DNA from: Dehalococcoidia bacterium
Lineage (GTDB): Bacteria; Chloroflexota; Dehalococcoidia; UBA2979
NCBI GenBank assembly: GCA_963667465.2
Contig: CAXXDN010000001.1
Span: 800,001-864,000, forward strand
Length of the DNA: 64,000 bases
Direction of reading: 5' to 3'
Shown here: piece after piece, positions 1,985 through 64,000 of the stretch
Position numbering within the stretch: the stretch's first letter is position 1
How the letters are laid out: the number at the start of each line of letters is the position of its first letter
Position numbers and translations under genes: made by a program
Notes under the pieces: model-generated
Seen by the model: only the letters and a program-made list of their open reading frames with translations
Told to the model about the DNA's origin: nothing
Databases searched by the model: none

Positions 1985-2996
1985 GAGTGGTCTCGTATGC
2001 GCCGGATTTGTCCAATAGCCGGTGCTGAGCGCGCAGCACAGCATGCCCATTGATTCGCCTGCCTGTGAGAGCCTCGCGAATGGCCACGCCGACTGCACAG
2101 GCGACGGGCGGAGGGAATGCGTTGCCGACTTGCCGGTACGCAGCTGTCTTGCGGCCCGCGAACATCCAGTCGTCCGGGAACCCCTGAAGGCGGGCGATCA
2201 TGCGCACGGTAAGCCGCGGGAGGACGTCCGGGTTGTGATCGGGCGGAGGTGGCGCATCAGCGAGGCCTAATCCGTCGACGCCGAGTGTGCGCCACTGTTT
2301 GCGCGCCCGCGTCGGACCGAGGTCAGGGCCGCCATGCTTCTTCGAGCCGCCCACAAGGGTGGGCGCGATCGAGTTGGCTCCCTTGGCCCATGCCGTTGCG
2401 CCGGGCCAGCCATCGGCAGCCATGAGATCCCGCAGGGTTTCCCCGACTGTGGGCGCTGCAGACGTTCCCTCCGGCCACGCGAAGCGCTTGGCGTGCTTCG
2501 GGCGCAGGGCTACGAGGACGAACCTCGGGCGCAACTGCGGCACACCGAAGTCCGACGAGGTGAGTAGACGCCAGTCTGGGTCGTAGCCGAGTTCGCGCAG
2601 TTCGCCGAAGAGCCAACTCCGGTATTGCTCAAAGCGCTTCGTTGCGAACCCACGCACGTTCTCCAGCATGACCGCTGCCGGACGCGATTCCCTGATCAGC
2701 CGCAGAGCCTCAGGGAACAGGTCGCGCTCGTCGTCTGCGCCCAACTGATCGCCGGCGATGGAGAATGGTGGGCAAGGAACACCCCCGGCCAGTAAGTCCA
2801 CGCCCCGGTACTCCTTGCCGTCGATTGCCGCCACGTCGTCCTCAATCACGTCCCACGACGGGCGGTTCCAGCGGAGGGTTGTGCATGCGTGCGGATCGTT
2901 GTCCACCGCCGCGGTGTGCTCCCATCCGGCGGCCTCCAGGCCGATGGCTTGCCCGCCTGCGCCGGCGCAGATCTCAAGGACGCTGAGTCGGCTCAC
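1977..2996 (-). CDS. DNA (cytosine-5)-methyltransferase, M.NgoMIV/M.NaeI-like
   Basis: Motif I CAGAGG, catalytic GGVPCPPFS, ENV, QLRPR, YRQVGNAFPP. TRD segment APTLVGGSKKHGGPDLGPTR is typical of GCCGGC-type MTases. Confidence 0.95.
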   Translation of the reverse strand: MSRLSVLEICAGAGGQAIGLEAAGWEHTAAVDNDPHACTTLRWNRPSWDVIEDDVAAIDGKEYRGVDLLAGGVPCPPFSIAGDQLGADDERDLFPEALRLIRESRPAAVMLENVRGFATKRFEQYRSWLFGELRELGYDPDWRLLTSSDFGVPQLRPRFVLVALRPKHAKRFAWPEGTSAAPTVGETLRDLMAADGWPGATAWAKGANSIAPTLVGGSKKHGGPDLGPTRARKQWRTLGVDGLGLADAPPPPDHNPDVLPRLTVRMIARLQGFPDDWMFAGRKTAAYRQVGNAFPPPVACAVGVAIREALTGRRINGHAVLRAQHRLLDKSGAYETTRA

Positions 2997-3418
2997 CGGC
3001 TCGCCCTCTCCGGTACCCCGCGCAGCCCCTCAAGTCGGCGCATGAGGCGCGAGGTGTCTCGCTCGAGCGTGCATTCCCTGATGGTGAACACGTCCCATTG
3101 CTCCTCTTCGAGGGAGTAGGCGTTGCGTTGGTCCCGGACCATGTTGCCCTCGATCTTCGGCCCCCAGTAGGAAGTGTTCTTGCGAGGCCGGCCTGCGCGT
3201 TCGCAGTCATGCCCGTGCCAGAAGCAGCCGTGGACGAAGACCGCGAGCCGGTAGCGGGGGAACACGAGGTCGGGGCGACCGGGGAGATCGCGTCGGTGCA
3301 GCCGGAAGCGGAATCCCGCCGCGTGGACGCGGCGGCGCACGTGCAGCTCAGGCTTGGTGTCCTTGCTCCGGATGGCCGCCATGTTGCGGCGGCGGCCCTC
3401 GGTCGGAGATTCTAGCAC
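2993..3418 (-). CDS. vsr: Very short patch repair endonuclease
   Basis: MAAIRSKDTKPE, LPGRPD, FVHGCFWHGH motifs; overlaps the MTase start by 4 nt. Confidence 0.95.
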   Translation of the reverse strand: MLESPTEGRRRNMAAIRSKDTKPELHVRRRVHAAGFRFRLHRRDLPGRPDLVFPRYRLAVFVHGCFWHGHDCERAGRPRKNTSYWGPKIEGNMVRDQRNAYSLEEEQWDVFTIRECTLERDTSRLMRRLEGLRGVPERASR

Positions 3419-3472: not shown

Positions 3473-4264
3473 TCAATCGCCCACCCCGTCGATAAACGCC
3501 AGCACGGCGGCGTTCCAGGCTTCCGGGCGCTCGAAGTAGGCGGAGTGGCCGGCGCCCTCGACCTCGACGTAGCGGGAGCCGGGGGTCAGCTCGTGCGAGA
3601 TGCGGACCAGCTCGGCAGGCACCACGCGCTCTTCCGCGCCGGCGATCCAGAGCAGCGGCGCTCCGCTGTCGAGCAGCCGCTCGCGCGTCGAGCCCCGGTA
3701 GTTGCGCATCGCCGGCGGCGGCGCCAGGAAGTCGCGAGGGCGCGGCGGGTTGATCGAGCGGATACGGCGATAGAGCCACTCGAGGGCCGGCTCGCGCTTC
3801 CGGAAGTCCTCGGCGAGCGCGCGCTGCAGCAGGCTGCCGGAGAGCGCCCCCGAGGCCTGTAACTCGGCCTTGCGCTCGCGCAGCCGGTCGTCGACGCAGC
3901 CGGCGTTGGAGCCGGAGATGGTGAGGGAGCGGAAGCCGTCCGGCCTGTGCCGCATCAGCCCGATCGCCGTGCGCGCGCCCATCGAGTGCGCGACGAAGTG
4001 CACCGGGCCGAGGTCCAGCCGCTCGACGAGCGCATGGATGTCGTCGCCGAAGGCGGCGCGGCCGGGGCCGCCCGCGATGTCGGGAGAGCGGCCGAAGGCG
4101 CGGTGGTCGAAGGTGACGACGGAGTAGCGCTCGCTGAAGGCGGGGATCTGCCGCCACCAGGACATGGCGTTGCCGCCCGCGCCGTGCGCGAAGACGACGG
4201 GCGGGCCCTCGCCGTGGCGCTCGTAGTAGAGGTGGAAGCCGTCGTCGAGTTCGAGGTGCGGCAC
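3473..4264 (-). CDS. Alpha/beta hydrolase
   Basis: HGAGG, HSMG nucleophile elbow, GAGHSAY. Start placed at GTG 4264 (VPHLEL). Confidence 0.85.
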   Translation of the reverse strand: MPHLELDDGFHLYYERHGEGPPVVFAHGAGGNAMSWWRQIPAFSERYSVVTFDHRAFGRSPDIAGGPGRAAFGDDIHALVERLDLGPVHFVAHSMGARTAIGLMRHRPDGFRSLTISGSNAGCVDDRLRERKAELQASGALSGSLLQRALAEDFRKREPALEWLYRRIRSINPPRPRDFLAPPPAMRNYRGSTRERLLDSGAPLLWIAGAEERVVPAELVRISHELTPGSRYVEVEGAGHSAYFERPEAWNAAVLAFIDGVGD

Positions 4265-4488
4265 GGTGCAGGTCCTCGGCTGCGGGTCACACGGTACAGG
4301 CGAGGCTGGTTGCTGTCCGCGCTCGGGAGGGAGGGGACCCATCCACGCGCCCTCCATGTGCGGGCTTCGCCCGGTGCCCCTGCTTGTGGGGGGCTGCGCC
4401 CCTCACAAGCAGCTACGCGGGCCAGCTCGGAGGGCGTTGTGCATTCGGAGCGGCGCTCGCGCGCCGTCCCACTCACCCCAACCCTAAT

Positions 4489-4682
4489 GGGGTTCGACCG
4501 GACCCTGGAGCGATCTGGGAGACTGGTCTTGGACCGGCCGGCCGGTGAGCACTGCCCCTCCCCGAGACACTGCGATCTCCAGGGAGAGACCGTGCCCCGG
4601 CTGGTGCGTCCGGGTGGTCCACAGCACTCCTGGGGTGTCGTGCCCGAGAGCACTGGTCCATTAGGCCGTCGCAGGACCAGCC
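4489..4682 (+). ncRNA. Predicted IS110 bridge RNA (target-binding loop then donor-binding loop)
   Basis: LTG-like CCGGACCCT 4498-4506; RTG GGGAGAG 4582-88 (reverse complement of target CTCTCCC); LDG CCTGGGGTGTC 4629-39 (identical to right end); RDG CCATTAG 4658-64 (reverse complement of CTAATGG). Closing stem GGCTGGT 4599-4605 / ACCAGCC 4676-82. Confidence 0.85.
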
Positions 4683-4728
4683 CGGCAGGTCGCAAACAGC
4701 AGCACGAAGCGCAGGAAAGCGAGGCACG

Positions 4729-5952
4729 ATGACCCTCTACGTCGGTGACGACTGGTCCGAAGACCACCACGATGTCCAGCTCATGAACGAGGCCGGCGAA
4801 CGGCTCGCCGCCAGGCGGCTGCCCGAGGGCGTCGCGGGCGTCGCCGTGCTGCACGAACTGGTTGCCGAGCACGCCTCAGACCCGGGCGCGGTCGTGGTCG
4901 GCATCGAGACCGACCGCGGACCCTGGGTCACGGCCCTGCTCGCGGCCGGCTACCGCGTCTACGCGATCAACCCCCGCTCGGCGGCGCGCTACCGTGAGCG
5001 TCACCACCTGGGCGGCGCCAAGTCCGACGCCGCCGACGCGAAGCTGCTCGCCGACCTCGTGCGCACCGACCGCCACAACCACCGTCCGCTGGCCGGCGAC
5101 AGCGACGAGGCTGCCGCGGTGCGCATCCTCGCCCGCGCCCACCAGCAGCTGATCTGGGACCGCGTGCGCCAGACCAACCGGCTGCGCAACGCCCTCAGGG
5201 AGTATTTCCCGGCTGCCCTGCAGGCCTTCCCCAGCCTCGCGCACGGCGACGCCCTGGGCGTGCTGGCGCGGGCGAGCGAGCCGCGCGAGGCGGCGCGCCT
5301 GAGCACGTCGAAGATCCGCTCGGCGCTGCGCCGCGGCGGACGTCAGCGCAACCTCGAGCGGCGCGCCGCCGCGGTGCGCGACGCGCTGCGCTCCCCGCAA
5401 CTCGAGGCGCCGCCTGCCGTGAGCCGGGCGTTCGCCGCGAGCACCCGCGCGGCGGTCGCGCAGATCAGCGAGATCAACCGTCAGCTTACGGAGCTCGAGG
5501 CCGCGCTCACGAGCCATTTTGAGCAGCACCCGGACGCCGCAATCTACCGTTCCCTGCCCGGTCTCGGTGTCGTGCTCGGCGCCCGGGTGCTCGGCGAGTT
5601 CGGGGACGACCCCGAACGCTACGAGTCGGCGAAGTCCCGCAGGAACTACGCCGGCACCTCGCCGCTCACCGTAGCATCGGGCCGCAAGCGCAGCGTGCGC
5701 GCCCGCTTCGTGCGCAACCGCCGGCTCGCCGACGCCGTGGACCGCTGGGCGCTCTGCTCGCTGCAGGCGAGCCCCGGCTGCCATGACTTCTACCACCGCC
5801 GCCGCGCCGCGGGCGACCTCCACCACCAGGCGCTGCGCGCTCTCGGCAACCGCCTCGTCGGCTACCTCCACGGCTGCCTGAAGGCACGTCGCCCCTACGA
5901 CGAGGCCACCGCCTGGGCGCACCGCCACGACCGCGAACAGCTCGCCGCTTGA
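4729..5952 (+). CDS. IS110 DEDD recombinase/transposase
   Basis: YVGDDW, IET, KSDAADA (RuvC-like DEDD); SLPGLG, YAGTSP..SG Tnp domain; 407 aa. Confidence 0.97.
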   Translation: MTLYVGDDWSEDHHDVQLMNEAGERLAARRLPEGVAGVAVLHELVAEHASDPGAVVVGIETDRGPWVTALLAAGYRVYAINPRSAARYRERHHLGGAKSDAADAKLLADLVRTDRHNHRPLAGDSDEAAAVRILARAHQQLIWDRVRQTNRLRNALREYFPAALQAFPSLAHGDALGVLARASEPREAARLSTSKIRSALRRGGRQRNLERRAAAVRDALRSPQLEAPPAVSRAFAASTRAAVAQISEINRQLTELEAALTSHFEQHPDAAIYRSLPGLGVVLGARVLGEFGDDPERYESAKSRRNYAGTSPLTVASGRKRSVRARFVRNRRLADAVDRWALCSLQASPGCHDFYHRRRAAGDLHHQALRALGNRLVGYLHGCLKARRPYDEATAWAHRHDREQLAA

Positions 5953-5975
5953 CGCCTTAGCACCCTGGGGTGTCT
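5949..5975 (+). promoter_or_regulatory. -35 half of the IS circle-junction promoter
   Basis: TTGACG at 5949-54. Joining the right end to the left end gives TTGACG-N18-TCTAAT pointing into the bridge RNA. Confidence 0.6.
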
Positions 5976-6043
5976 CTCCCGCCAGGGGCGAGGGGGCCGG
6001 ACCGCCGTCTCCCGCCAGGGGCGAGGGGGGCGGACCGCTCTGG

Positions 6044-6517
6044 CTAGTCCTCGTCCCAGGGGACGCCGGTGGCGTTGGCGACGACGTCGAGGATGTCTTC
6101 GATGTCGCCCCGTAGCTGCGGGTCGGGGTCGAGGGTGAGAGCGCGGCGGAGGATCTCGGTGGTGGCGGTGTAGAGGGTGGCGGCGTCCTGCGCGACGGGC
6201 TGGTGCGGCTGGCGCTGGCGCGGGTGATCGAGGGCGTGCGCGACGAACTCGCGGCACCAGCCGAGCGTGTAGAGGATCGCGGCGTCGCCGGGGCAGAGTG
6301 CGACGGCGCGCTCCAGCGCGCCGAGGCCGTCCGCGAAGCGCCGCTTGCGCGTGACCAGCGTGTTGCCGAGGTAAGCGTGCGCCTCGCAGAACTCCGGATC
6401 GAGTGCGACGGCCCCCTCGGCAGTAGCGAGGGCGGCGTCGATCTGGTCGTCGCTGTGCAGGCGCATCGCGCGGCGCAGCAGCGCGCGAGGGTCCTCGCCC
6501 TCGGCGCTGGTGGTCAC
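6044..6517 (-). CDS. TPR-repeat protein
   Basis: AVALDPEFCEAHAYLG and AVALCPGDAAILYTLG TPR motifs. Confidence 0.8.
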   Translation of the reverse strand: MTTSAEGEDPRALLRRAMRLHSDDQIDAALATAEGAVALDPEFCEAHAYLGNTLVTRKRRFADGLGALERAVALCPGDAAILYTLGWCREFVAHALDHPRQRQPHQPVAQDAATLYTATTEILRRALTLDPDPQLRGDIEDILDVVANATGVPWDED

Positions 6518-16589: not shown

Positions 16590-16975
16590 CCCCGGAGCGG
16601 CGCTGGCGCGCCGACCCCCTCACCCCCGCCCTCTCCCGCAAGGGGAGAGGGGGCTGGACTCGCCCTCGTCGGTGCGTTGCCCCCTCCGGCGAGCTGCGCC
16701 CGCTCCCCCCCACCCCCGCCCTCTCCTCGCGGGGAGAGGGGGCCGGACGGTGCGCCCTCCAAAGCTCCGAGGGGGGCGTGGGGGCGCAGCCCCCACAGAG
16801 AGAAAATCCGAGGGCGGGTGGGTGGGCCAGAGCCGCGCAGCGTGCTCGTCCGGGATGGGGGTGTGGGGGGCGCAGCCCCCCGCAGCAGACACGCGCCTGG
16901 GCTTTGGAGGGTCGTCGTGTGCTCGGAGTGGCGCTCACCCCCGCCCTCTCCCGTCAGGGGAGCGGGGACCGGAGG
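16590..16975. repeat. BIME-like cluster: three REP palindromes plus GGGGGCGCAGCCCCC module
   Basis: CCCTCACCCCCGCCCTCTCCC-N-GGGAGAGGG units near 16615, 16708 and 16934. Confidence 0.85.
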
Positions 16976-24139: not shown

Positions 24140-24430
24140 CCTCGCCGGTGCGTTGCCCTCGCTGGCCGCGCTGTCGCGCGGCTCCCCCTCACCCCCGCCC
24201 GCTCCCGCCAGGGGAGAGGGGGCTGGACTCGCCCTCGATAGTCTGTTGCGCCCGCGAATCCGGCCCCCTCTCCTGGGGGAGAGGGTTGGGGTGAGGGGGC
24301 GCGCCTGCCTGGCTGCTGACTCGAAGGGTTGTTGCGCCCTCGGAGGTTCCCGGCGGGGGCGTGGGGGTCTGCGAGGTATCCTCGCGCCCGATCGAGACCG
24401 TGCCCCAACAGCAGACGCGCGCCTGGCTTC
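24140..24430. repeat. BIME-like cluster with an inverted REP pair
   Basis: REP near 24185 (+) and 24265-24299 (-); shares linkers with the 16.6 kb and 50.3 kb clusters. Confidence 0.8.
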
Positions 24431-35349: not shown

Positions 35350-35440
35350 TCCGGCTCCCTCGCCCCTCGCGGGTAGGGCGGGTCGCTCACCCCTCCGGCT
35401 CCCTCGCCCCTTGCGGGAGAGGGTTGGGGTGAGGGGTAGC
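35350..35440 (-). repeat. REP palindromes
   Basis: GGGAGAGGGTTGGGGTGAGGGG, whose reverse complement matches the reconstituted empty site of IS copy 1 around the core. Confidence 0.8.
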
Positions 35441-46049: not shown

Positions 46050-46290
46050 CGGCGTCCCGCTCTCTCCCCTCGCGGGAGAGGGCGGCCGGCTGCCCTCGGC
46101 CGGCGGGAGCCGGATCTCCTTCCGATCCCCTCTCCCCCTGGCGGGAGAGGGTTAGGGTGAGGGGGACTCCGGCGCAGCCGGAGCGCGCGCGCCTCGAGGA
46201 CTGTTGCGCCGCCGCAGGCTCCTCCCCCGGCGGGCGTCGGACCCCCTCACCCCCGCCCTCTCCCCTCGCGGGAGAGGGGGCCGGAGAGTG
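46050..46290. repeat. BIME-like REP cluster, homologous to 62555-62857
   Basis: Shared linkers CCTTCCGATCCCCTCTCCCC... and GCAGCCGGAGCGCGCGCG. Confidence 0.85.
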
Positions 46291-46364
46291 GGCCCCGCCG
46301 CCGCCCGACTGGAATCCGGCATCGGAGGGCGGTGCGCCCTCGGAGCGGCGCGGCGCGCCGGGCG

Positions 46365-47717
46365 TTACCAGCGGAAGCCGGTTGGGGCGCCGCCGGGGCG
46401 GCGGCGTTCGAGCTCCAGCACGAACTCCTGGAACCAGCGGCCCGCCGTCGTGAGGTCGACCGTCGTGCGCAGCACGGCCGCGCGGCGCGAGCGCTCGTCC
46501 CGCGGCATCTGCAGCGCGCGCTCGAGCGCCTCCTCGATCGAGCCGACGTCGGTCGCGCGCACGGGCAGGGCCCCCGTCAGTTGCGAGGCCGCCCCGCAGG
46601 TGTCGGACAGCACGAGGACGCCGGGGTGCTCGGCGGAGTGGACGGCCGCGAACTCCTTGGCGACGAGGTTCATGCCGTCGGCGAGCGAGGTGACCACGCA
46701 GATGTCGGCCGCCTCAAGGCCGGCGGCCACCTCGTCGGGCGGGTGCGAGGTGAGGTCCAGCTCGACGGGGTGCGGCTCGCCGAAGCGCGCGTTGATGCGC
46801 TCGGCCACCTCGATCACCGCGGCGCGCTCGGCCTGGTACTCCGGCACGTTGCCGCGCGAGGGCGCGGCCCACTGCACGAAGCGCGCCTCGCGCCGCCAGC
46901 GCGCGTCGCGCAGCAACAGCCGCTCGAACGCCTCGAGGCGCTGGCGGATGCCCTTCGTGTAGTCGAGCCGGTCGACGCCGAAGAGGATCTGGCGCTCGTC
47001 ACCCTCGCGGGCGAGGGGGTCGGAGCCGTAGGAGGCGGCGAACTGGCGGAAGCGCTGCGGGTCGATGCCGACCGGGTGCGCGGAGATGTGCTCGCCGTGA
47101 TCGGCGGGCAGCAGCGTGCGCAGTTGATCGCGGTCGCGCGGCGTTTGCGTGCCGATCAGTTCGTAGGCGGTGAACGAGGCGGCGAGCGCCTCGTGGTTGG
47201 GGATCGCCTCCCAGTGCTCGCCAGGCGGGACCGGGACGTGGTGGAAGTAGCCGAGCGGCCCGCGCCAACCGAGCCGCTGCAGCTCCTGGCCGAGCGGGAT
47301 CAGCTGGTAGTCGTGTACCCAGATGAGGTCGTCGGCCGCGAGCAGCGGCACGAGCGCGAGAGCGAAGCGGCGGTTCGCCGTGCGGTAAGTCGAGTATTCG
47401 AGATGCAGGCTCGTCGCCTGCTCGGCGAGGCCGTGCAGGCGGGGCCAGAGCGTGCGATTGCAGAAGCCCTCGTAGAAGTCCGCGATCTCCTGCGCGGGCA
47501 GATCGATGGTGACATAATCGATGTCGCTCGTAACCGTGCGCTGCGGCGGGGTGTTCGGGTCGCCGGCCTCCCCGCTCCAGCCGAACCAGATGCCGCCGAC
47601 TGCGGCGAGTGGCGGCAAGAGCGCGGAAACGAGGCCGCCCGCCGGCCAGGGCGCGCCCTCGGCGGGCGGGGGCGGCACCCGGTTGGAGGCGATGACCACG
47701 CGCCGGCGGCCGTTCAC
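46365..47717 (-). CDS. otsA: Trehalose-6-phosphate synthase
   Basis: SNRVP, AGGL, WFGWSG, WVHDYQL, GVDRLDYTKG, DGMNLVAKE. Confidence 0.93.
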   Translation of the reverse strand: MNGRRRVVIASNRVPPPPAEGAPWPAGGLVSALLPPLAAVGGIWFGWSGEAGDPNTPPQRTVTSDIDYVTIDLPAQEIADFYEGFCNRTLWPRLHGLAEQATSLHLEYSTYRTANRRFALALVPLLAADDLIWVHDYQLIPLGQELQRLGWRGPLGYFHHVPVPPGEHWEAIPNHEALAASFTAYELIGTQTPRDRDQLRTLLPADHGEHISAHPVGIDPQRFRQFAASYGSDPLAREGDERQILFGVDRLDYTKGIRQRLEAFERLLLRDARWRREARFVQWAAPSRGNVPEYQAERAAVIEVAERINARFGEPHPVELDLTSHPPDEVAAGLEAADICVVTSLADGMNLVAKEFAAVHSAEHPGVLVLSDTCGAASQLTGALPVRATDVGSIEEALERALQMPRDERSRRAAVLRTTVDLTTAGRWFQEFVLELERRRPGGAPTGFRW

Positions 47718-62554: not shown

Positions 62555-62857
62555 GCGTCGGACCCCCTCACCCCCGCCCTCTCCCGCGAGGGGAGAGGGG
62601 GCCGGATGCCTCGATCCCGTCTCTCCCGGCGGAGGTCGGACCCCCTTCCGATCCCCTCTCCCCCGGCGGGAGAGGGTCAGGGTGAGGGGGATTCCGGAGC
62701 AGCCGGAGCGCGCGCGTCTCGCTGGGCTGTTGCGCCGCCGCAGGGTCCTCGCCCGGCGGGAGCCGGACCCCCTCACCCCCGCCCTCTCCCGCGAGGGGAG
62801 AGGGGGCCGGAGCCGCTGTAGGAGGTTGGGTGTGGCCGCCCTCTCCTGCGAGGGGAG
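62555..62857. repeat. BIME-like cluster of four REPs, the last interrupted by IS110
   Basis: REPs near 62564 (+), 62654 (-), 62768 (+) and 62840. Confidence 0.85.
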
Positions 62858-64000
62858 AGACACCCCAGGGTGCTAAGGCGTCAAGCGGCGAGCTGTTCGC
62901 GGTCGTGGCGGTGCGCCCAGGCGGTGGCCTCGTCGTAGGGGCGACGTGCCTTCAGGCAGCCGTGGAGGTAGCCGACGAGGCGGTTGCCGAGAGCGCGCAG
63001 CGCCTGGTGGTGGAGGTCGCCCGCGGCGCGGCGGCGGTGGTAGAAGTCATGGCAGCCGGGGCTCGCCTGCAGCGAGCAGAGCGCCCAGCGGTCCACGGCG
63101 TCGGCGAGCCGGCGGTTGCGCACGAAGCGGGCGCGCACGCTGCGCTTGCGGCCCGATGCTACGGTGAGCGGCGAGGTGCCGGCGTAGTTCCTGCGGGACT
63201 TCGCCGACTCGTAGCGTTCGGGGTCGTCCCCGAACTCGCCGAGCACCCGGGCGCCGAGCACGACACCGAGACCGGGCAGGGAACGGTAGATTGCGGCGTC
63301 CGGGTGCTGCTCAAAATGGCTCGTGAGCGCGGCCTCGAGCTCCGTAAGCTGACGGTTGATCTCGCTGATCTGCGCGACCGCCGCGCGGGTGCTCGCGGCG
63401 AACGCCCGGCTCACGGCAGGCGGCGCCTCGAGTTGCGGGGAGCGCAGCGCGTCGCGCACCGCGGCGGCGCGCCGCTCGAGGTTGCGCTGACGTCCGCCGC
63501 GGCGCAGCGCCGAGCGGATCTTCGACGTGCTCAGGCGCGCCGCCTCGCGCGGCTCGCTCGCCCGCGCCAGCACGCCCAGGGCGTCGCCGTGCGCGAGGCT
63601 GGGGAAGGCCTGCAGGGCAGCCGGGAAATACTCCCTGAGGGCGTTGCGCAGCCGGTTGGTCTGGCGCACGCGGTCCCAGATCAGCTGCTGGTGGGCGCGG
63701 GCGAGGATGCGCACCGCGGCAGCCTCGTCGCTGTCGCCGGCCAGCGGACGGTGGTTGTGGCGGTCGGTGCGCACGAGGTCGGCGAGCAGCTTCGCGTCGG
63801 CGGCGTCGGACTTGGCGCCGCCCAGGTGGTGACGCTCACGGTAGCGCGCCGCCGAGCGGGGGTTGATCGCGTAGACGCGGTAGCCGGCCGCGAGCAGGGC
63901 CGTGACCCAGGGTCCGCGGTCGGTCTCGATGCCGACCACGACCGCGCCCGGGTCTGAGGCGTGCTCGGCAACCAGTTCGTGCAGCACGGCGACGCCCGCG
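62858..64000 (-). mobile_element. IS110 copy 2 (left end outside the window)
   Basis: Same right end TTGACGCCTTAGCACCCTGGGGTGT-CT followed by REP CTCCCCTCGCAGGAGAGGG. Confidence 0.95.
62881..64000 (-). CDS. IS110 recombinase copy 2 (5' end cut by the window edge)
   Basis: Translation appears identical to copy 1 over the visible 368 aa. Confidence 0.95.
   Translation of the reverse strand, partial: AGVAVLHELVAEHASDPGAVVVGIETDRGPWVTALLAAGYRVYAINPRSAARYRERHHLGGAKSDAADAKLLADLVRTDRHNHRPLAGDSDEAAAVRILARAHQQLIWDRVRQTNRLRNALREYFPAALQAFPSLAHGDALGVLARASEPREAARLSTSKIRSALRRGGRQRNLERRAAAVRDALRSPQLEAPPAVSRAFAASTRAAVAQISEINRQLTELEAALTSHFEQHPDAAIYRSLPGLGVVLGARVLGEFGDDPERYESAKSRRNYAGTSPLTVASGRKRSVRARFVRNRRLADAVDRWALCSLQASPGCHDFYHRRRAAGDLHHQALRALGNRLVGYLHGCLKARRPYDEATAWAHRHDREQLAA

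What the first reader, a model, noticed from the sequence alone, without database searches (positions are those of the whole stretch)
4484..4728. IS110 bridge RNA with all four guides readable, aimed at the host REP repeat
Seen: the circle-junction donor would be CCTGGGGTGT-CT-AATGG and the empty target CCCCAACC-CT-CTCCC. The left end contains, in order, CCGGACCCT (4498-4506; 7/9 to this target, 8/9 to REP variant CCTGACCCT near 62675), GGGAGAG (4582-88; exact reverse complement of CTCTCCC), CCTGGGGTGTC (4629-39; exact 11-nt left donor) and CCATTAG (4658-64; exact reverse complement of CTAATGG). LDG and RDG are separated by a GTGC/GCAC hairpin and enclosed by GGCTGGT/ACCAGCC. Known: this is the LTG-RTG-LDG-RDG layout and CT core of the IS621 bridge recombinase. 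Inference: an intact RNA-guided recombinase from a distant high-GC lineage, and a candidate new programmable ortholog.
Basis: partly seen in the sequence, partly recalled or inferred. Interest (0 to 1): 0.9.

Follow-up and report, generated by a model that had tools for sequence, protein, structure and literature searches.

The report
Bridge-RNA insertion sequence aimed at REP repeats

Summary
Window 4486-5973 is a 1488-bp IS110-group element with CT on both sides. The genome holds 10 full copies at 99.9-100% identity. Its 407-aa protein has both IS110 Pfam domains and conserved DEDD and Ser-Gly residues.

Across 80 related loci the RTG place matches its own right flank (4.30 contiguous nt beyond the core, against 0.76 for other elements' flanks).

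It lies in a conserved 5' stem-loop, a 7/9 match arises in 800 of 2000 shuffled left ends, and its place shows no signal in relatives (4.93 vs 4.94 of 9). The covarying LTG is 4555-4563, CCCCUCC plus CC (6.51 vs 4.35). The proposed GGCTGGT/ACCAGCC helix is also unsupported. A different two-loop fold is supported.

A handshake base and a promoter formed only at the circle junction are conserved too.

Nine of ten copies sit in a REP-like palindrome.

No RNA data exist, so transcription and activity are inferred. Verdict: real, new member of a known kind.

The parts
4476..4485 (+). Left target (LT) CCCCAACC plus the CT core (4484-4485) of this copy
   Evidence: The ten copies have LT = CCCC[G/T/A/C]CC-type 7-mers followed by CT.
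4486..5973 (+). IS110-group insertion sequence, 1488 bp, with no terminal inverted repeats. It is flanked by CT on each side.
   Evidence: 10 full-length copies at 99.9-100% identity plus one copy cut by a contig end; flanks.
4496..4528 (+). 5' stem-loop (outer stem GACCGG/CUGGUC).
   Evidence: helix 1: 6 pairs, 5 with changes on both sides, 88.2% of cells paired; no flank signal at this place (4.93 vs 4.94 of 9).
4538..4604 (+). Target-binding loop module. Outer stem 4538-4552 with 4592-4604, internal loop, and hairpin 4564-4579 (GAGA/UCUC).
   Evidence: Helix 2: 13 pairs, 9 with double changes, 98.7% paired. Helix 3: 4 pairs, 3 with double changes, 97.5% paired.
4555..4563 (+). Revised LTG: body CCCCUCC (4555-4561) plus core-side CC (4562-4563)
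   Evidence: the homologous strand matches its own LT 6.51 of 9 against 4.35 for other elements' LT (57 pairs); own-match rates for LT -1 to -7 are 0.98, 0.93, 0.82, 0.66, 0.54, 0.66, 0.41 against 0.21-0.58 for other elements' LT; the ten occupied sites have 0 (1 site), 1 (7 sites) or 2 (2 sites) mismatches.
4582..4588 (+). RTG GGGAGAG, the reverse complement of CT-CTCCC
   Evidence: Own-match rates for RT +1 to +5 are 1.00, 0.98, 0.94, 0.90, 0.45. Mean contiguous match is 4.30 against 0.76.
4589..4590 (+). Candidate TBL handshake bases AC, complementary to the last two LD bases GT
   Evidence: Read from the sequence. AU or AC follows the RTG where the LDG has GU before the core in 64 of 80 parsed loci. 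This place barely varies, so it is weak evidence.
4610..4685 (+). Donor-binding loop module. Outer stem 4610-4627 with 4668-4685, internal loop, and hairpin GUGC/GCAC 4640-4653.
   Evidence: Helix 4: 76.5% paired, 8 of 11 pairs with double changes. Helix 5: 96.3% paired. Helix 6: 100% paired, nearly invariant.
4629..4639 (+). LDG CCUGGGGUGUC, identical to LD plus the core C at 5964-5974
   Evidence: 2 of 5000 shuffles; at the one variable position, guide/donor are A/A in 27, G/G in 19, G/A in 3 and A/G in 0.
4658..4664 (+). RDG CCAUUAG, the reverse complement of CT-AATGG (core plus 4486-4490)
   Evidence: 2 of 5000 shuffles; 62 of 67 relatives have the exact complement upstream. G029 has CUAUUAG with CTAATAG.
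4665..4665 (+). DBL handshake base G, complementary to LT -1 (C4483)
   Evidence: Watson-Crick to LT -1 in 66 of 69 non-identical cases, against 43.9 expected if independent. All 10 C cases go with G, both U cases with A, and 1 of 2 A cases with T.
4729..5952 (+). Recombinase gene, 407 aa: DEDD RuvC-like domain plus Tnp domain
   Evidence: PF01548 6.9e-38 and PF02371 7.1e-11. D8, E60, D100, D103, S317 and G318 are invariant in 25 sequences; the profile hits IS621 transposase 8wt6 at E 1.1e-27.
5949..5954 (+). -35 box TTGACG, overlapping the stop codon. With an 18-nt spacer, T5973 + CT + AAT(4486-4488) would give the -10 box TCTAAT, only on the circle junction.
   Evidence: sequence; 59 of 60 distinct right ends have TTGACA with at most 1 mismatch at 17-18 nt; no sigma-70-like site in the integrated copy.
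5964..5980 (+). Left donor CCTGGGGTGT (5964-5973), CT core (5974-5975), right target CTCCC (5976-5980)
5974..6040 (+). REP-like palindromic repeat units that received the insertion (two tandem units to the right)
   Evidence: sequence; consensus CCCCnCnCC..CCCTCTCCCCC.GGGGGAGAGGG; 68 copies of the CTCACCCC-N2-3-CCTCTCCC signature.

Best explanation
Window 4486-5973 is one of ten identical copies of an IS110-group insertion sequence that moves by bridge-RNA-guided recombination, as described for IS621.

Inferred cycle:
1. The element is excised as a circle.
2. Joining the right end to the left end puts a -35 box (TTGACG, 5949-5954) 18 nt from a -10 box (TCTAAT) that exists only across the junction.
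3. That promoter transcribes the left end and the recombinase gene.
4. The left-end RNA (about 4496-4690) folds into a 5' stem-loop and two stem/internal-loop/hairpin modules.

[quoted passage not shown] In the second module, CCUGGGGUGUC (4629-4639) and CCAUUAG (4658-4664) pair with the two sides of the circle junction. The base after the RDG (G4665) can pair with the last left-target base after strand exchange.

The DEDD/Ser recombinase exchanges strands at the shared CT. The element therefore ends up with CT on each side.

The specified site (about 7 + CT + 4-5 bp) lies in one arm of a REP-like palindrome, on the side next to CTCACCCC. The host genome carries dozens of such palindromes.

Shown here: anatomy, copy number, flanks, structural covariation, guide-flank covariation, and conserved catalytic residues. 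Inferred: the RNA itself, the promoter, the circle, and catalysis.
For: Element and copies. There are ten 1488-bp copies at 99.9-100% identity. All have CT on both sides. Nine of ten have CT-CTCCC on the right, and the left 7-mers have 0-2 mismatches to CCCCTCC.

Protein. Both IS110 Pfam domains are present. D8, E60, D100, D103, S317 and G318 are invariant in 25 homologues. The DxxD and SG motifs align to IS621 (E 1.1e-27).

Fold. On 60 left ends, 42 pairs are 91.7% paired, against 83.8% in shuffles (0 of 500 reach it) and 31.6-47.9% when partners are slid. There are 257 double-change cells against 77 expected.

Guides.
- RTG: contiguous match beyond the core is 4.30 to the element's own flank and 0.76 to other elements' flanks (57 pairs).
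- LTG strand: 6.51 of 9 to its own flank and 4.35 to others (57 pairs).
- There are 45 distinct RTG 7-mers among 80 parsed loci.
- LDG variable position: A/A 27, G/G 19, G/A 3, A/G 0.
- Handshake base: 66 of 69 Watson-Crick against 43.9 expected.

Promoter. 59 of 60 distinct right ends carry a -35 box 17-18 nt before the junction -10. No promoter-like site was found in the integrated copy.

Mechanism. The model comes from Durrant 2024 (PMC11208160, section 7 and passages read) and Hiraizumi 2024 (PMC11208158, passages read).
Against: - No RNA evidence. All 20 holder runs are kept as contigs and none is on record as RNA, so transcript, ends and promoter are untested.
- The single-sequence MFE fold of the left end is no better than shuffles (z = -0.44).
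- No Rfam family matched the left end at E up to 10.
- The LTG does not fit this copy well: 5 of 7 to CCCAACC. It fits the REP consensus CCCCGCC with a U-C mismatch at -3. By sequence alone a 7/9 match to that consensus arises in 1286 of 2000 shuffles, so the LTG assignment rests on homology of position and on covariation in relatives.
- Its second core-side base is C, not U.
- The LDG 10-mer is exact in its own right end in only 43 of 71 relatives, against 395 of 3146 for elements with a different LDG. The donor side varies little (6 RDG variants), so donor covariation is thin.
- In relatives the element ends were located with the donor guides, so donor matches there are partly circular.
- The left flanks of G152 and G041 did not fit their LTG strands.
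- One of the ten copies has CT-AACCC on its right.
Confidence: 0.88

Rival explanations
1. One reading: the same element, but the left target guide is CCGGACCCU at 4498-4506 and the donor loop is closed by GGCUGGU/ACCAGCC.
For: The string is there and is 7/9 to this copy's left target and 8/9 to the REP variant at 62668-62682. The seven-base helix can form in this one sequence.
Against: - A 7/9 match occurs in 800 of 2000 shuffled left ends.
- The ten occupied sites have 2-4 mismatches to its 7-nt body, against 0-2 for CCCCUCC.
- In relatives this place matches its own flank no better than other elements' flanks (4.93 vs 4.94 of 9, 57 pairs).
- It lies inside a 5' stem-loop helix that has compensatory changes (helix 1).
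- The proposed closing helix is 61.9% paired against 60.5% in shuffles.
Confidence: 0.04
2. The repeated strings act as DNA, not RNA. On this view the internal copies of the end sequences are protein-binding subterminal repeats, and target choice comes from the recombinase recognising the REP hairpin itself.
For: - No transcript has been seen.
- The donor-side strings barely vary in the family.
- The target is a palindrome that could be recognised as a structure. A 2026 preprint reports a target stem-loop as an extra determinant for ISPpu10 (10.64898/2026.03.19.712850, abstract read).
Against: - 45 distinct RTG 7-mers track the elements' own right flanks, and the LTG strand tracks left flanks. 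A fixed protein surface cannot explain this.
- Left guides match in sense and right guides in antisense, as the RNA model needs.
- The guide-bearing loops sit in helices with compensatory changes.
- At the LDG variable position the only mixed case seen is the one that gives a G-T wobble (3 cases), and never the A-C combination (0 cases).
- The structural-gate idea can hold alongside the RNA model without replacing it.
Confidence: 0.04
3. The anatomy is right but the element is a dead relic in this genome and no longer transposes.
For: No circle junction was seen in the contigs of the 4 runs laid. No unoccupied site perfectly matches the LTG body (0 of 504 N7-CT-CTCCC candidates).
Against: - Ten copies are 99.9-100% identical over 1488 bp and the six copies searched at protein level have open frames, which points to recent spread.
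- The catalytic residues are intact.
- 42 empty sites carry one mismatch, and seven of the ten real insertions used sites of exactly that kind.
- Contigs cannot show rare circles.
Confidence: 0.04

Closest known systems
IS621 (E. coli) bridge recombinase and bridge RNA. Sources: Durrant et al. 2024, PMC11208160 (section 7 and passages read); Hiraizumi et al. 2024, PMC11208158 (passages read).
   Same: - DEDD RuvC-like plus Tnp(Ser) recombinase.
- Long left end that encodes the RNA.
- 5' stem-loop followed by a target-binding loop and a donor-binding loop.
- Left guides in sense and right guides in antisense.
- CT core included in the pairings.
- Handshake base after the RDG.
- Promoter rebuilt at the RE-LE junction.
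- REP-type target.
   Different: - The protein is too distant for a single-sequence hit; only a profile reaches it. It is 407 aa against a 328-aa PDB chain.
- The RTG reads 4-5 bases beyond the core, where the paper gives a four-base RTG including the core for IS621.
- The LTG signal fades after about 6-7 bases.
- The second core-side base of the left guides is often unpaired. It is U in 66% of LTGs; here it is C in the LTG and G after the LDG.
- The RDG here pairs contiguously (7 nt), not discontiguously.
The clade of relatives found here: IS110-group elements of Dehalococcoidia MAGs (75-91% aa identity) and of Actinomycetota such as Mycobacterium, Rhodococcus, Nocardia and Acidimicrobiia (60-73%)
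   Same: They share the same left-end architecture, which can be aligned column by column. They have nearly the same donor guides and the same junction promoter. The nearest ones (L053, L055, L056, L063, L064) even share the RTG GGGAGAG and REP-like flanks.
   Different: Each lineage has its own LTG and RTG. This element's LTG (CCCCUCC) differs from those of its nearest relatives (for example CCUCGCC, CCUUGCC, GGCUCC). I could not check whether any of them has an ISfinder name or a published bridge RNA model.
ISPpu9 / ISPpu10 of Pseudomonas putida: IS110 elements that insert into REP or a conserved intergenic stem-loop. Sources: PMC12288879 (search listing only); 10.64898/2026.03.19.712850 (abstract read).
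   Same: IS110 elements whose natural targets are multi-copy palindromic intergenic repeats.
   Different: Different host phylum and a different repeat. Whether the hairpin of this REP adds specificity was not tested here.
IS1111 group and seekRNA elements
   Same: Same recombinase family and same guide logic.
   Different: According to Durrant 2024 (passage read), those elements carry the RNA in the right end and have longer subterminal inverted repeats. Here the left end is 243 nt and the right end about 21 nt, and the RNA is in the left end.

Membership tests
IS110-group bridge-RNA insertion sequence | Recombinase with a DEDD RuvC-like domain and a Tnp domain carrying the catalytic serine | tested here: met
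   PF01548 at 6.9e-38 and PF02371 at 7.1e-11. D8, E60, D100, D103, S317 and G318 are invariant in 25 sequences. The DxxD and SG motifs align to IS621. The E60 column is locally shifted in that printed alignment. The match of ours' IE to IS621's IE is my reading of the letters.
IS110-group bridge-RNA insertion sequence | No terminal inverted repeats, and a shared core dinucleotide (CT) at both junctions instead of a longer target duplication | tested here: met
   All 10 copies have CT on both sides. Joining the flanks with a single CT gives the REP consensus.
IS110-group bridge-RNA insertion sequence | Non-coding left end much longer than the right end, with the RNA encoded in the left end | tested here: met
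   The left end is 4486-4728 (243 nt). The right end after the stop codon is 5953-5973 (21 nt).
IS110-group bridge-RNA insertion sequence | Conserved fold with two stem/internal-loop/hairpin modules | tested here: met
   42 pairs, 91.7% paired, 29 pairs with changes on both sides. Shuffle and slide controls are far lower. RNAalifold found the same helices on its own, except the 5' stem-loop.
IS110-group bridge-RNA insertion sequence | First-loop strands covary with the left and right target flanks (LTG in sense, RTG in antisense) | tested here: met
(57 and 56/49 pairs), with other elements' flanks as the control.
IS110-group bridge-RNA insertion sequence | Second-loop strands match the element's own right and left ends (LDG, RDG) | tested here: met
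   Here the matches are exact over 11 nt and 7 nt. In relatives the variation is small, and the ends were found with the guides, so the support is weaker.
IS110-group bridge-RNA insertion sequence | Handshake guide after the RDG pairs with the last left-target base | tested here: met
   66 of 69 Watson-Crick against 43.9 expected. Here G4665 pairs with C4483.
IS110-group bridge-RNA insertion sequence | Promoter reconstituted at the circle junction | tested here: inconclusive
   The sequence motifs fit and are conserved (59 of 60; none in the integrated copy). No transcript or circle was observed.
IS110-group bridge-RNA insertion sequence | The RNA is made, binds the recombinase, and is needed for recombination | not testable with these tools
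   No RNA run holds the stretch. This needs bench work.
IS1111 group | RNA in a long right end, with subterminal inverted repeats of 7-17 bp | tested here: not met
   The right end is only 21 nt after the stop codon and the guides are in the left end.

The most novel reading that the evidence does not exclude
This element and its clade show natural 'family targeting'. The left guide leaves the second core base unpaired and tolerates a mismatch at LT -3. One bridge RNA can therefore serve a whole set of REP variants (CCCC[G/T/A/C]CC-CT-CTCCC), and the RTG plus the inner LTG bases carry most of the specificity.

The same clade spans two phyla (Dehalococcoidia MAGs and Actinomycetota). That would mean recent cross-phylum transfer, followed by retuning of the target loop alone to each new host's repeats.
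Probability: 0.3. Interest if true: 0.4.

Novelty: new member of a known kind. Interest (0 to 1): 0.3.

Why it matters
It adds a well-defined bridge recombinase from a high-GC Dehalococcoidia genome. It looks recently active. It comes with ten natural insertion sites, a set of 80 relatives that map its guides position by position, and a clear natural target.

That is useful raw material for people who collect orthologs for genome engineering. It also helps in studying how IS110 elements retune the target loop to host repeats.

It does not change what is known about the mechanism.

Tried and rejected
- Single-sequence folding of 4487-4728 was not better than shuffles (z = -0.44). Its MFE structure mixes the modules, so it was not used.
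- The Rfam scan of 4000-6400 at E up to 10 gave no bridge-RNA family. The only real hit is Ms_AS-4, antisense inside the gene.
- phmmer of the protein against PDB sequences found nothing. A profile was needed.
- Sequencing runs: 20 holders, no RNA holder listed, all kept as contigs.
- Laying 4 runs (X1, X2, X3, X9, chosen from 21 listed) showed no circle junction and no transcript ends, and contigs cannot show them.
- One contig of X9 joins 4483 to 5974, skipping 1490 bases. The shorter side is only 25 letters at likeness 90. I read it as an unoccupied REP copy or a relative, not as proof of excision.
- G152 and G041: their left flanks did not fit their LTG strands. In G152 the two ends come from different contigs. 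I did not resolve this.
- The guide parser examined 82 loci: 80, this window, and G224. L081 (no TBL anchor) and L114 (no RDG) failed.
- Rows without a left flank of at least 11 nt, without a recognisable 5' arm of the outer stem, or with identical guide and flank were dropped. That left 57 pairs for the LTG and 57 for the RTG.
- Five left ends outside 200-260 nt (L084, L099, L118, L119, L123) were left out of alignment A2.
- L077 and L082 were mis-parsed on the donor side (LDG read as GTTGCCGCCGGG) and add noise.
- G272 is marked unpublished.
- Supplementary files were not requested. Durrant's Supplementary Data 2 and Table 5 may already list this clade's bridge RNA models.
- Print searches: 'bridge RNA' + IS621 + IS110 gave 23 papers. 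IS110 / bridge RNA / Dehalococcoidia gave 51 papers with at least two of the terms, and none of the 10 listed holds Dehalococcoidia. 'bridge RNA' + Chloroflexota gave 1 paper, in which Chloroflexota refers to an unrelated repeat array.
Full report
WHAT IS THERE

Window 4486-5973 is a 1488-bp element bounded by ...CCCCAACC-CT|AATGG on the left and CCTGGGGTGT-CT-CTCCC on the right. The window is G000:C1:800001-864000, in a 2.97-Mb, 71% G+C assembly of two contigs.

BLAST of the element against that genome gives ten full-length copies at 99.9-100% identity. One more copy is cut by a contig end. One of the full copies lies at the window's own end (C1:862860-864347, minus strand).

All ten copies have CT on both sides. 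Nine have CT-CTCCC on the right and one has CT-AACCC. The seven bases left of the core are CCCCGCC in five copies and CCCCTCC, CCCCACC, CCCCCCC, CCCAACC (this copy) and CGCCCCC in one each.

The only long ORF on the plus strand (4729-5952, 407 aa) carries PF01548 DEDD_Tnp_IS110 (6.9e-38) and PF02371 Transposase_20 (7.1e-11).

In dinucleotide-preserving shuffles of the 243-nt left end, the exact LDG 11-mer and the exact RDG 7-mer each turn up in 2 of 5000. The RTG 7-mer turns up in 437 of 5000.

The LTG claim is different. A 7/9 match to this copy's left target is found in 800 of 2000 shuffled left ends. The ten occupied sites have 2-4 mismatches to that string's 7-nt body.

RELATIVES

A sample of 301 genomes of the same phylum gave 14 genomes with a match, G000 included. 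A scan of one genome per species, using a five-sequence protein alignment, returned the 80 best loci.

The closest, at 75-91% amino-acid identity, are in MAGs titled Dehalococcoidia bacterium. The rest, at 60-73%, are mostly Actinomycetota (Mycobacterium, Rhodococcus, Nocardia, Acidimicrobiia and others). Their left ends align column by column (60 distinct sequences, 62% mean column identity).

THE FOLD

RNAalifold on that alignment found a long outer stem and a small hairpin around the first loop, and an outer stem and an invariant GUGC/GCAC hairpin around the second loop. 21 of its 36 pairs have compensatory changes.

I wrote out a 42-pair structure that adds a 5' stem-loop and extends the donor-loop stem. 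Results on the 60 sequences:
- 91.7% of cells pair, against 83.8% in shuffles (0 of 500 reach it).
- 31.6-47.9% of cells pair when the 3' partners are slid by 1-3 columns.
- 257 cells have changes on both sides, against 77 expected.

GGCUGG belongs instead to the outer stem of the target loop.

There, five of the six outer pairs show changes on both sides (helix 1).

THE GUIDES

In each relative I located the donor hairpin, the RDG, the conserved anchor after the RTG, and the 5' arm of the outer stem. I then found the element ends from the donor guides. Because the ends come from the donor loop, comparing the target loop with the flanks is an independent test. I used other elements' flanks as the control.

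RTG. The contiguous match beyond the CT core is 4.30 to the element's own right flank and 0.76 to other elements' flanks (57 non-identical pairs). By position, the own-match rates for RT +1 to +5 are 1.00, 0.98, 0.94, 0.90 and 0.45. Control rates are 0.26-0.52 (49 pairs).

LTG. The 5' strand of the first loop matches its own left target plus core at 6.51 of 9, against 4.35 for other elements (57 pairs). The own-match rates for LT -1 to -7 are 0.98, 0.93, 0.82, 0.66, 0.54, 0.66 and 0.41, against 0.21-0.58 for other elements' flanks (about 0.25 except at -1). They fall to background at -8 (56 pairs).

In this window the covarying strand is U-G-CCCCUCC-CC at 4553-4563. The LTG body is 4555-4561 and the two core-side bases are 4562-4563. 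It fits the ten occupied sites with 0 mismatches (one site), 1 mismatch (seven sites) or 2 mismatches (two sites, this copy included).

Donor side. The donor guides vary little: 19 LDG 12-mers, mostly two variants, and 6 RDG 7-mers. At the one common variable LDG position, guide and donor are A/A in 27, G/G in 19, G/A in 3 and A/G in 0. This fits pairing with the bottom strand, with G-T wobble allowed.

The LDG 10-mer is exact in the element's own right end in 43 of 71, against 395 of 3146 for elements with a different LDG. That support is real but modest. It is also partly circular, because the ends were found with these guides.

Handshake base. The base after the RDG is Watson-Crick to the last left-target base in 66 of 69 non-identical cases, where 43.9 are expected if the two were independent. 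This is the handshake guide described for IS621 (PMC11208158, passages read). Here it is G4665 with C4483.

PROMOTER

The integrated copy has no sigma-70-like site in 4300-6100. The right end carries TTGACG at 5949-5954, overlapping the stop codon. Eighteen bases later come T5973, the CT core and, on a circle, AAT of the left end. Together these read TCTAAT.

59 of 60 distinct right ends in the family have TTGACA with at most one mismatch, 17-18 nt before that junction hexamer. This matches the junction promoter reported for IS621 (PMC11208158 and PMC11208160, passages read).

A start a few bases downstream would fall near 4495, just where the 5' stem-loop begins. That is an inference.

PROTEIN

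The single sequence finds nothing in the PDB at E 0.001. A profile of 25 homologues finds IS621 transposase (8wt6, 1.1e-27) and ISCro4 transposase (9t56, 2.7e-26).

D8, E60, D100, D103, S317 and G318 are invariant in the 25 sequences. The DxxD and SG motifs align to those of IS621, whose D11, E60, D102, D105 and S241 are catalytic (PMC11208158, passages read).

THE TARGET

CCCTCTCCC occurs 206 times in the genome, against about 88 expected from base composition. Its surroundings give the consensus CCCC.C.CC..C.CCCTCTCCCCC.GGGGGAGAGGG.G..GG.G.GGGG, a palindrome with unequal flanks.

68 copies carry the CTCACCCC-N2-3-CCTCTCCC signature. 113 CCTCTCC-N3-12-GGAGAGG palindromes lie on the plus strand.

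The element sits in the arm next to CTCACCCC. In the other orientation the seven bases left of the core do not fit the LTG.

There are 504 N7-CT-CTCCC candidates, a count that includes the elements' own right junctions. None has 0 mismatches to the LTG body, 42 have one (40 of them the REP consensus CCCCGCC) and 47 have two. All ten real insertions fall in the 0-2 mismatch class.

REP targeting by IS110 elements is already known: Tobes and Pareja 2006, cited in PMC11208160; ISPpu9, search listing only; ISPpu10, abstract read.

WHAT WAS NOT SHOWN

There is no RNA evidence. All 20 holder runs are contigs and none is on record as RNA. Some are labelled sponge metagenome.

Laying four runs showed no circle junction. 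One contig of a lower-share run joins 4483 to 5974. I read it as an empty REP copy.

The single-sequence fold is unremarkable, and Rfam has no matching family for the left end.

The LTG of this element fits the commonest REP variant only with a U-C mismatch at -3, and its second core-side base is C. Whether that means tolerance, drift or a preference for the rarer CCCCTCC variant is open. The only genomic site with CCCCTCC is occupied.

VERDICT

This is a genuine IS110-group bridge-RNA element that looks recently active. It is distant from IS621 in protein sequence but has the same architecture in every feature I could test.

It is a new member of a known kind. Bridge RNAs were predicted for most ISfinder IS110s in 2024 and are now mined at scale (10.64898/2026.10.21.760802, passages read). 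A specialist would therefore not be surprised. The value lies in a clean, well-mapped ortholog from an unusual host.

Noticed in passing
window 5553-5634, minus strand: Rfam RF02464 (Actinobacteria sRNA Ms_AS-4) matches at 65.1 bits (gathering score 50), antisense to the most conserved part of the recombinase gene (the LPGLGVVLGARVLGEFGDDP region). This may reflect only coding conservation shared with mycobacterial IS110 elements, or it may be a real antisense RNA of this IS family.
   Followed up: no
window 62860-64000, minus strand (C1:862860-864347): A second, identical copy of the element runs off the window's end. It lies next to a cluster of REP-like units at about 62571-62790.
   Followed up: partly
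window 16623-16952, 24192-24291, 35415-35429, 46143-46387, 62571-62790: These are clusters of the REP-like palindrome. They include two unoccupied sites identical to this copy's target (24277 and 35415, minus strand).
   Followed up: partly
window 5976-6040: Two tandem REP-like units (tctcccgccaggggcgaggggg.cggaccgc, twice) lie directly right of the insertion.
   Followed up: no
loci L051-L130: The same IS clade occurs at 75-91% protein identity in several Dehalococcoidia MAGs and at 60-73% in many Actinomycetota. One locus each comes from a MAG titled Candidatus Sericytochromatia and one titled Candidatus Spongiisociaceae. This suggests transfer across phyla. No tree was built.
   Followed up: no
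G000:C2:1583213-1584700: This is the one copy with a non-consensus right target (CT-AACCC) and a flank that is not a typical REP. It looks like a natural off-target insertion with two RTG mismatches.
   Followed up: no
window 2993-3418, minus strand: A 141-aa ORF with the string FVHGCFWHGH looks, from recall only, like a very-short-patch repair endonuclease. It was not scanned against any library.
   Followed up: no
rc(L037) 1240-1330 (G152): The left flank of this 75-78% relative shares CCGGTA(G) with both its 5' stem-loop and its LTG strand, but it does not fit the LTG in register. The two ends of this element come from different contigs. This remains unexplained.
   Followed up: partly
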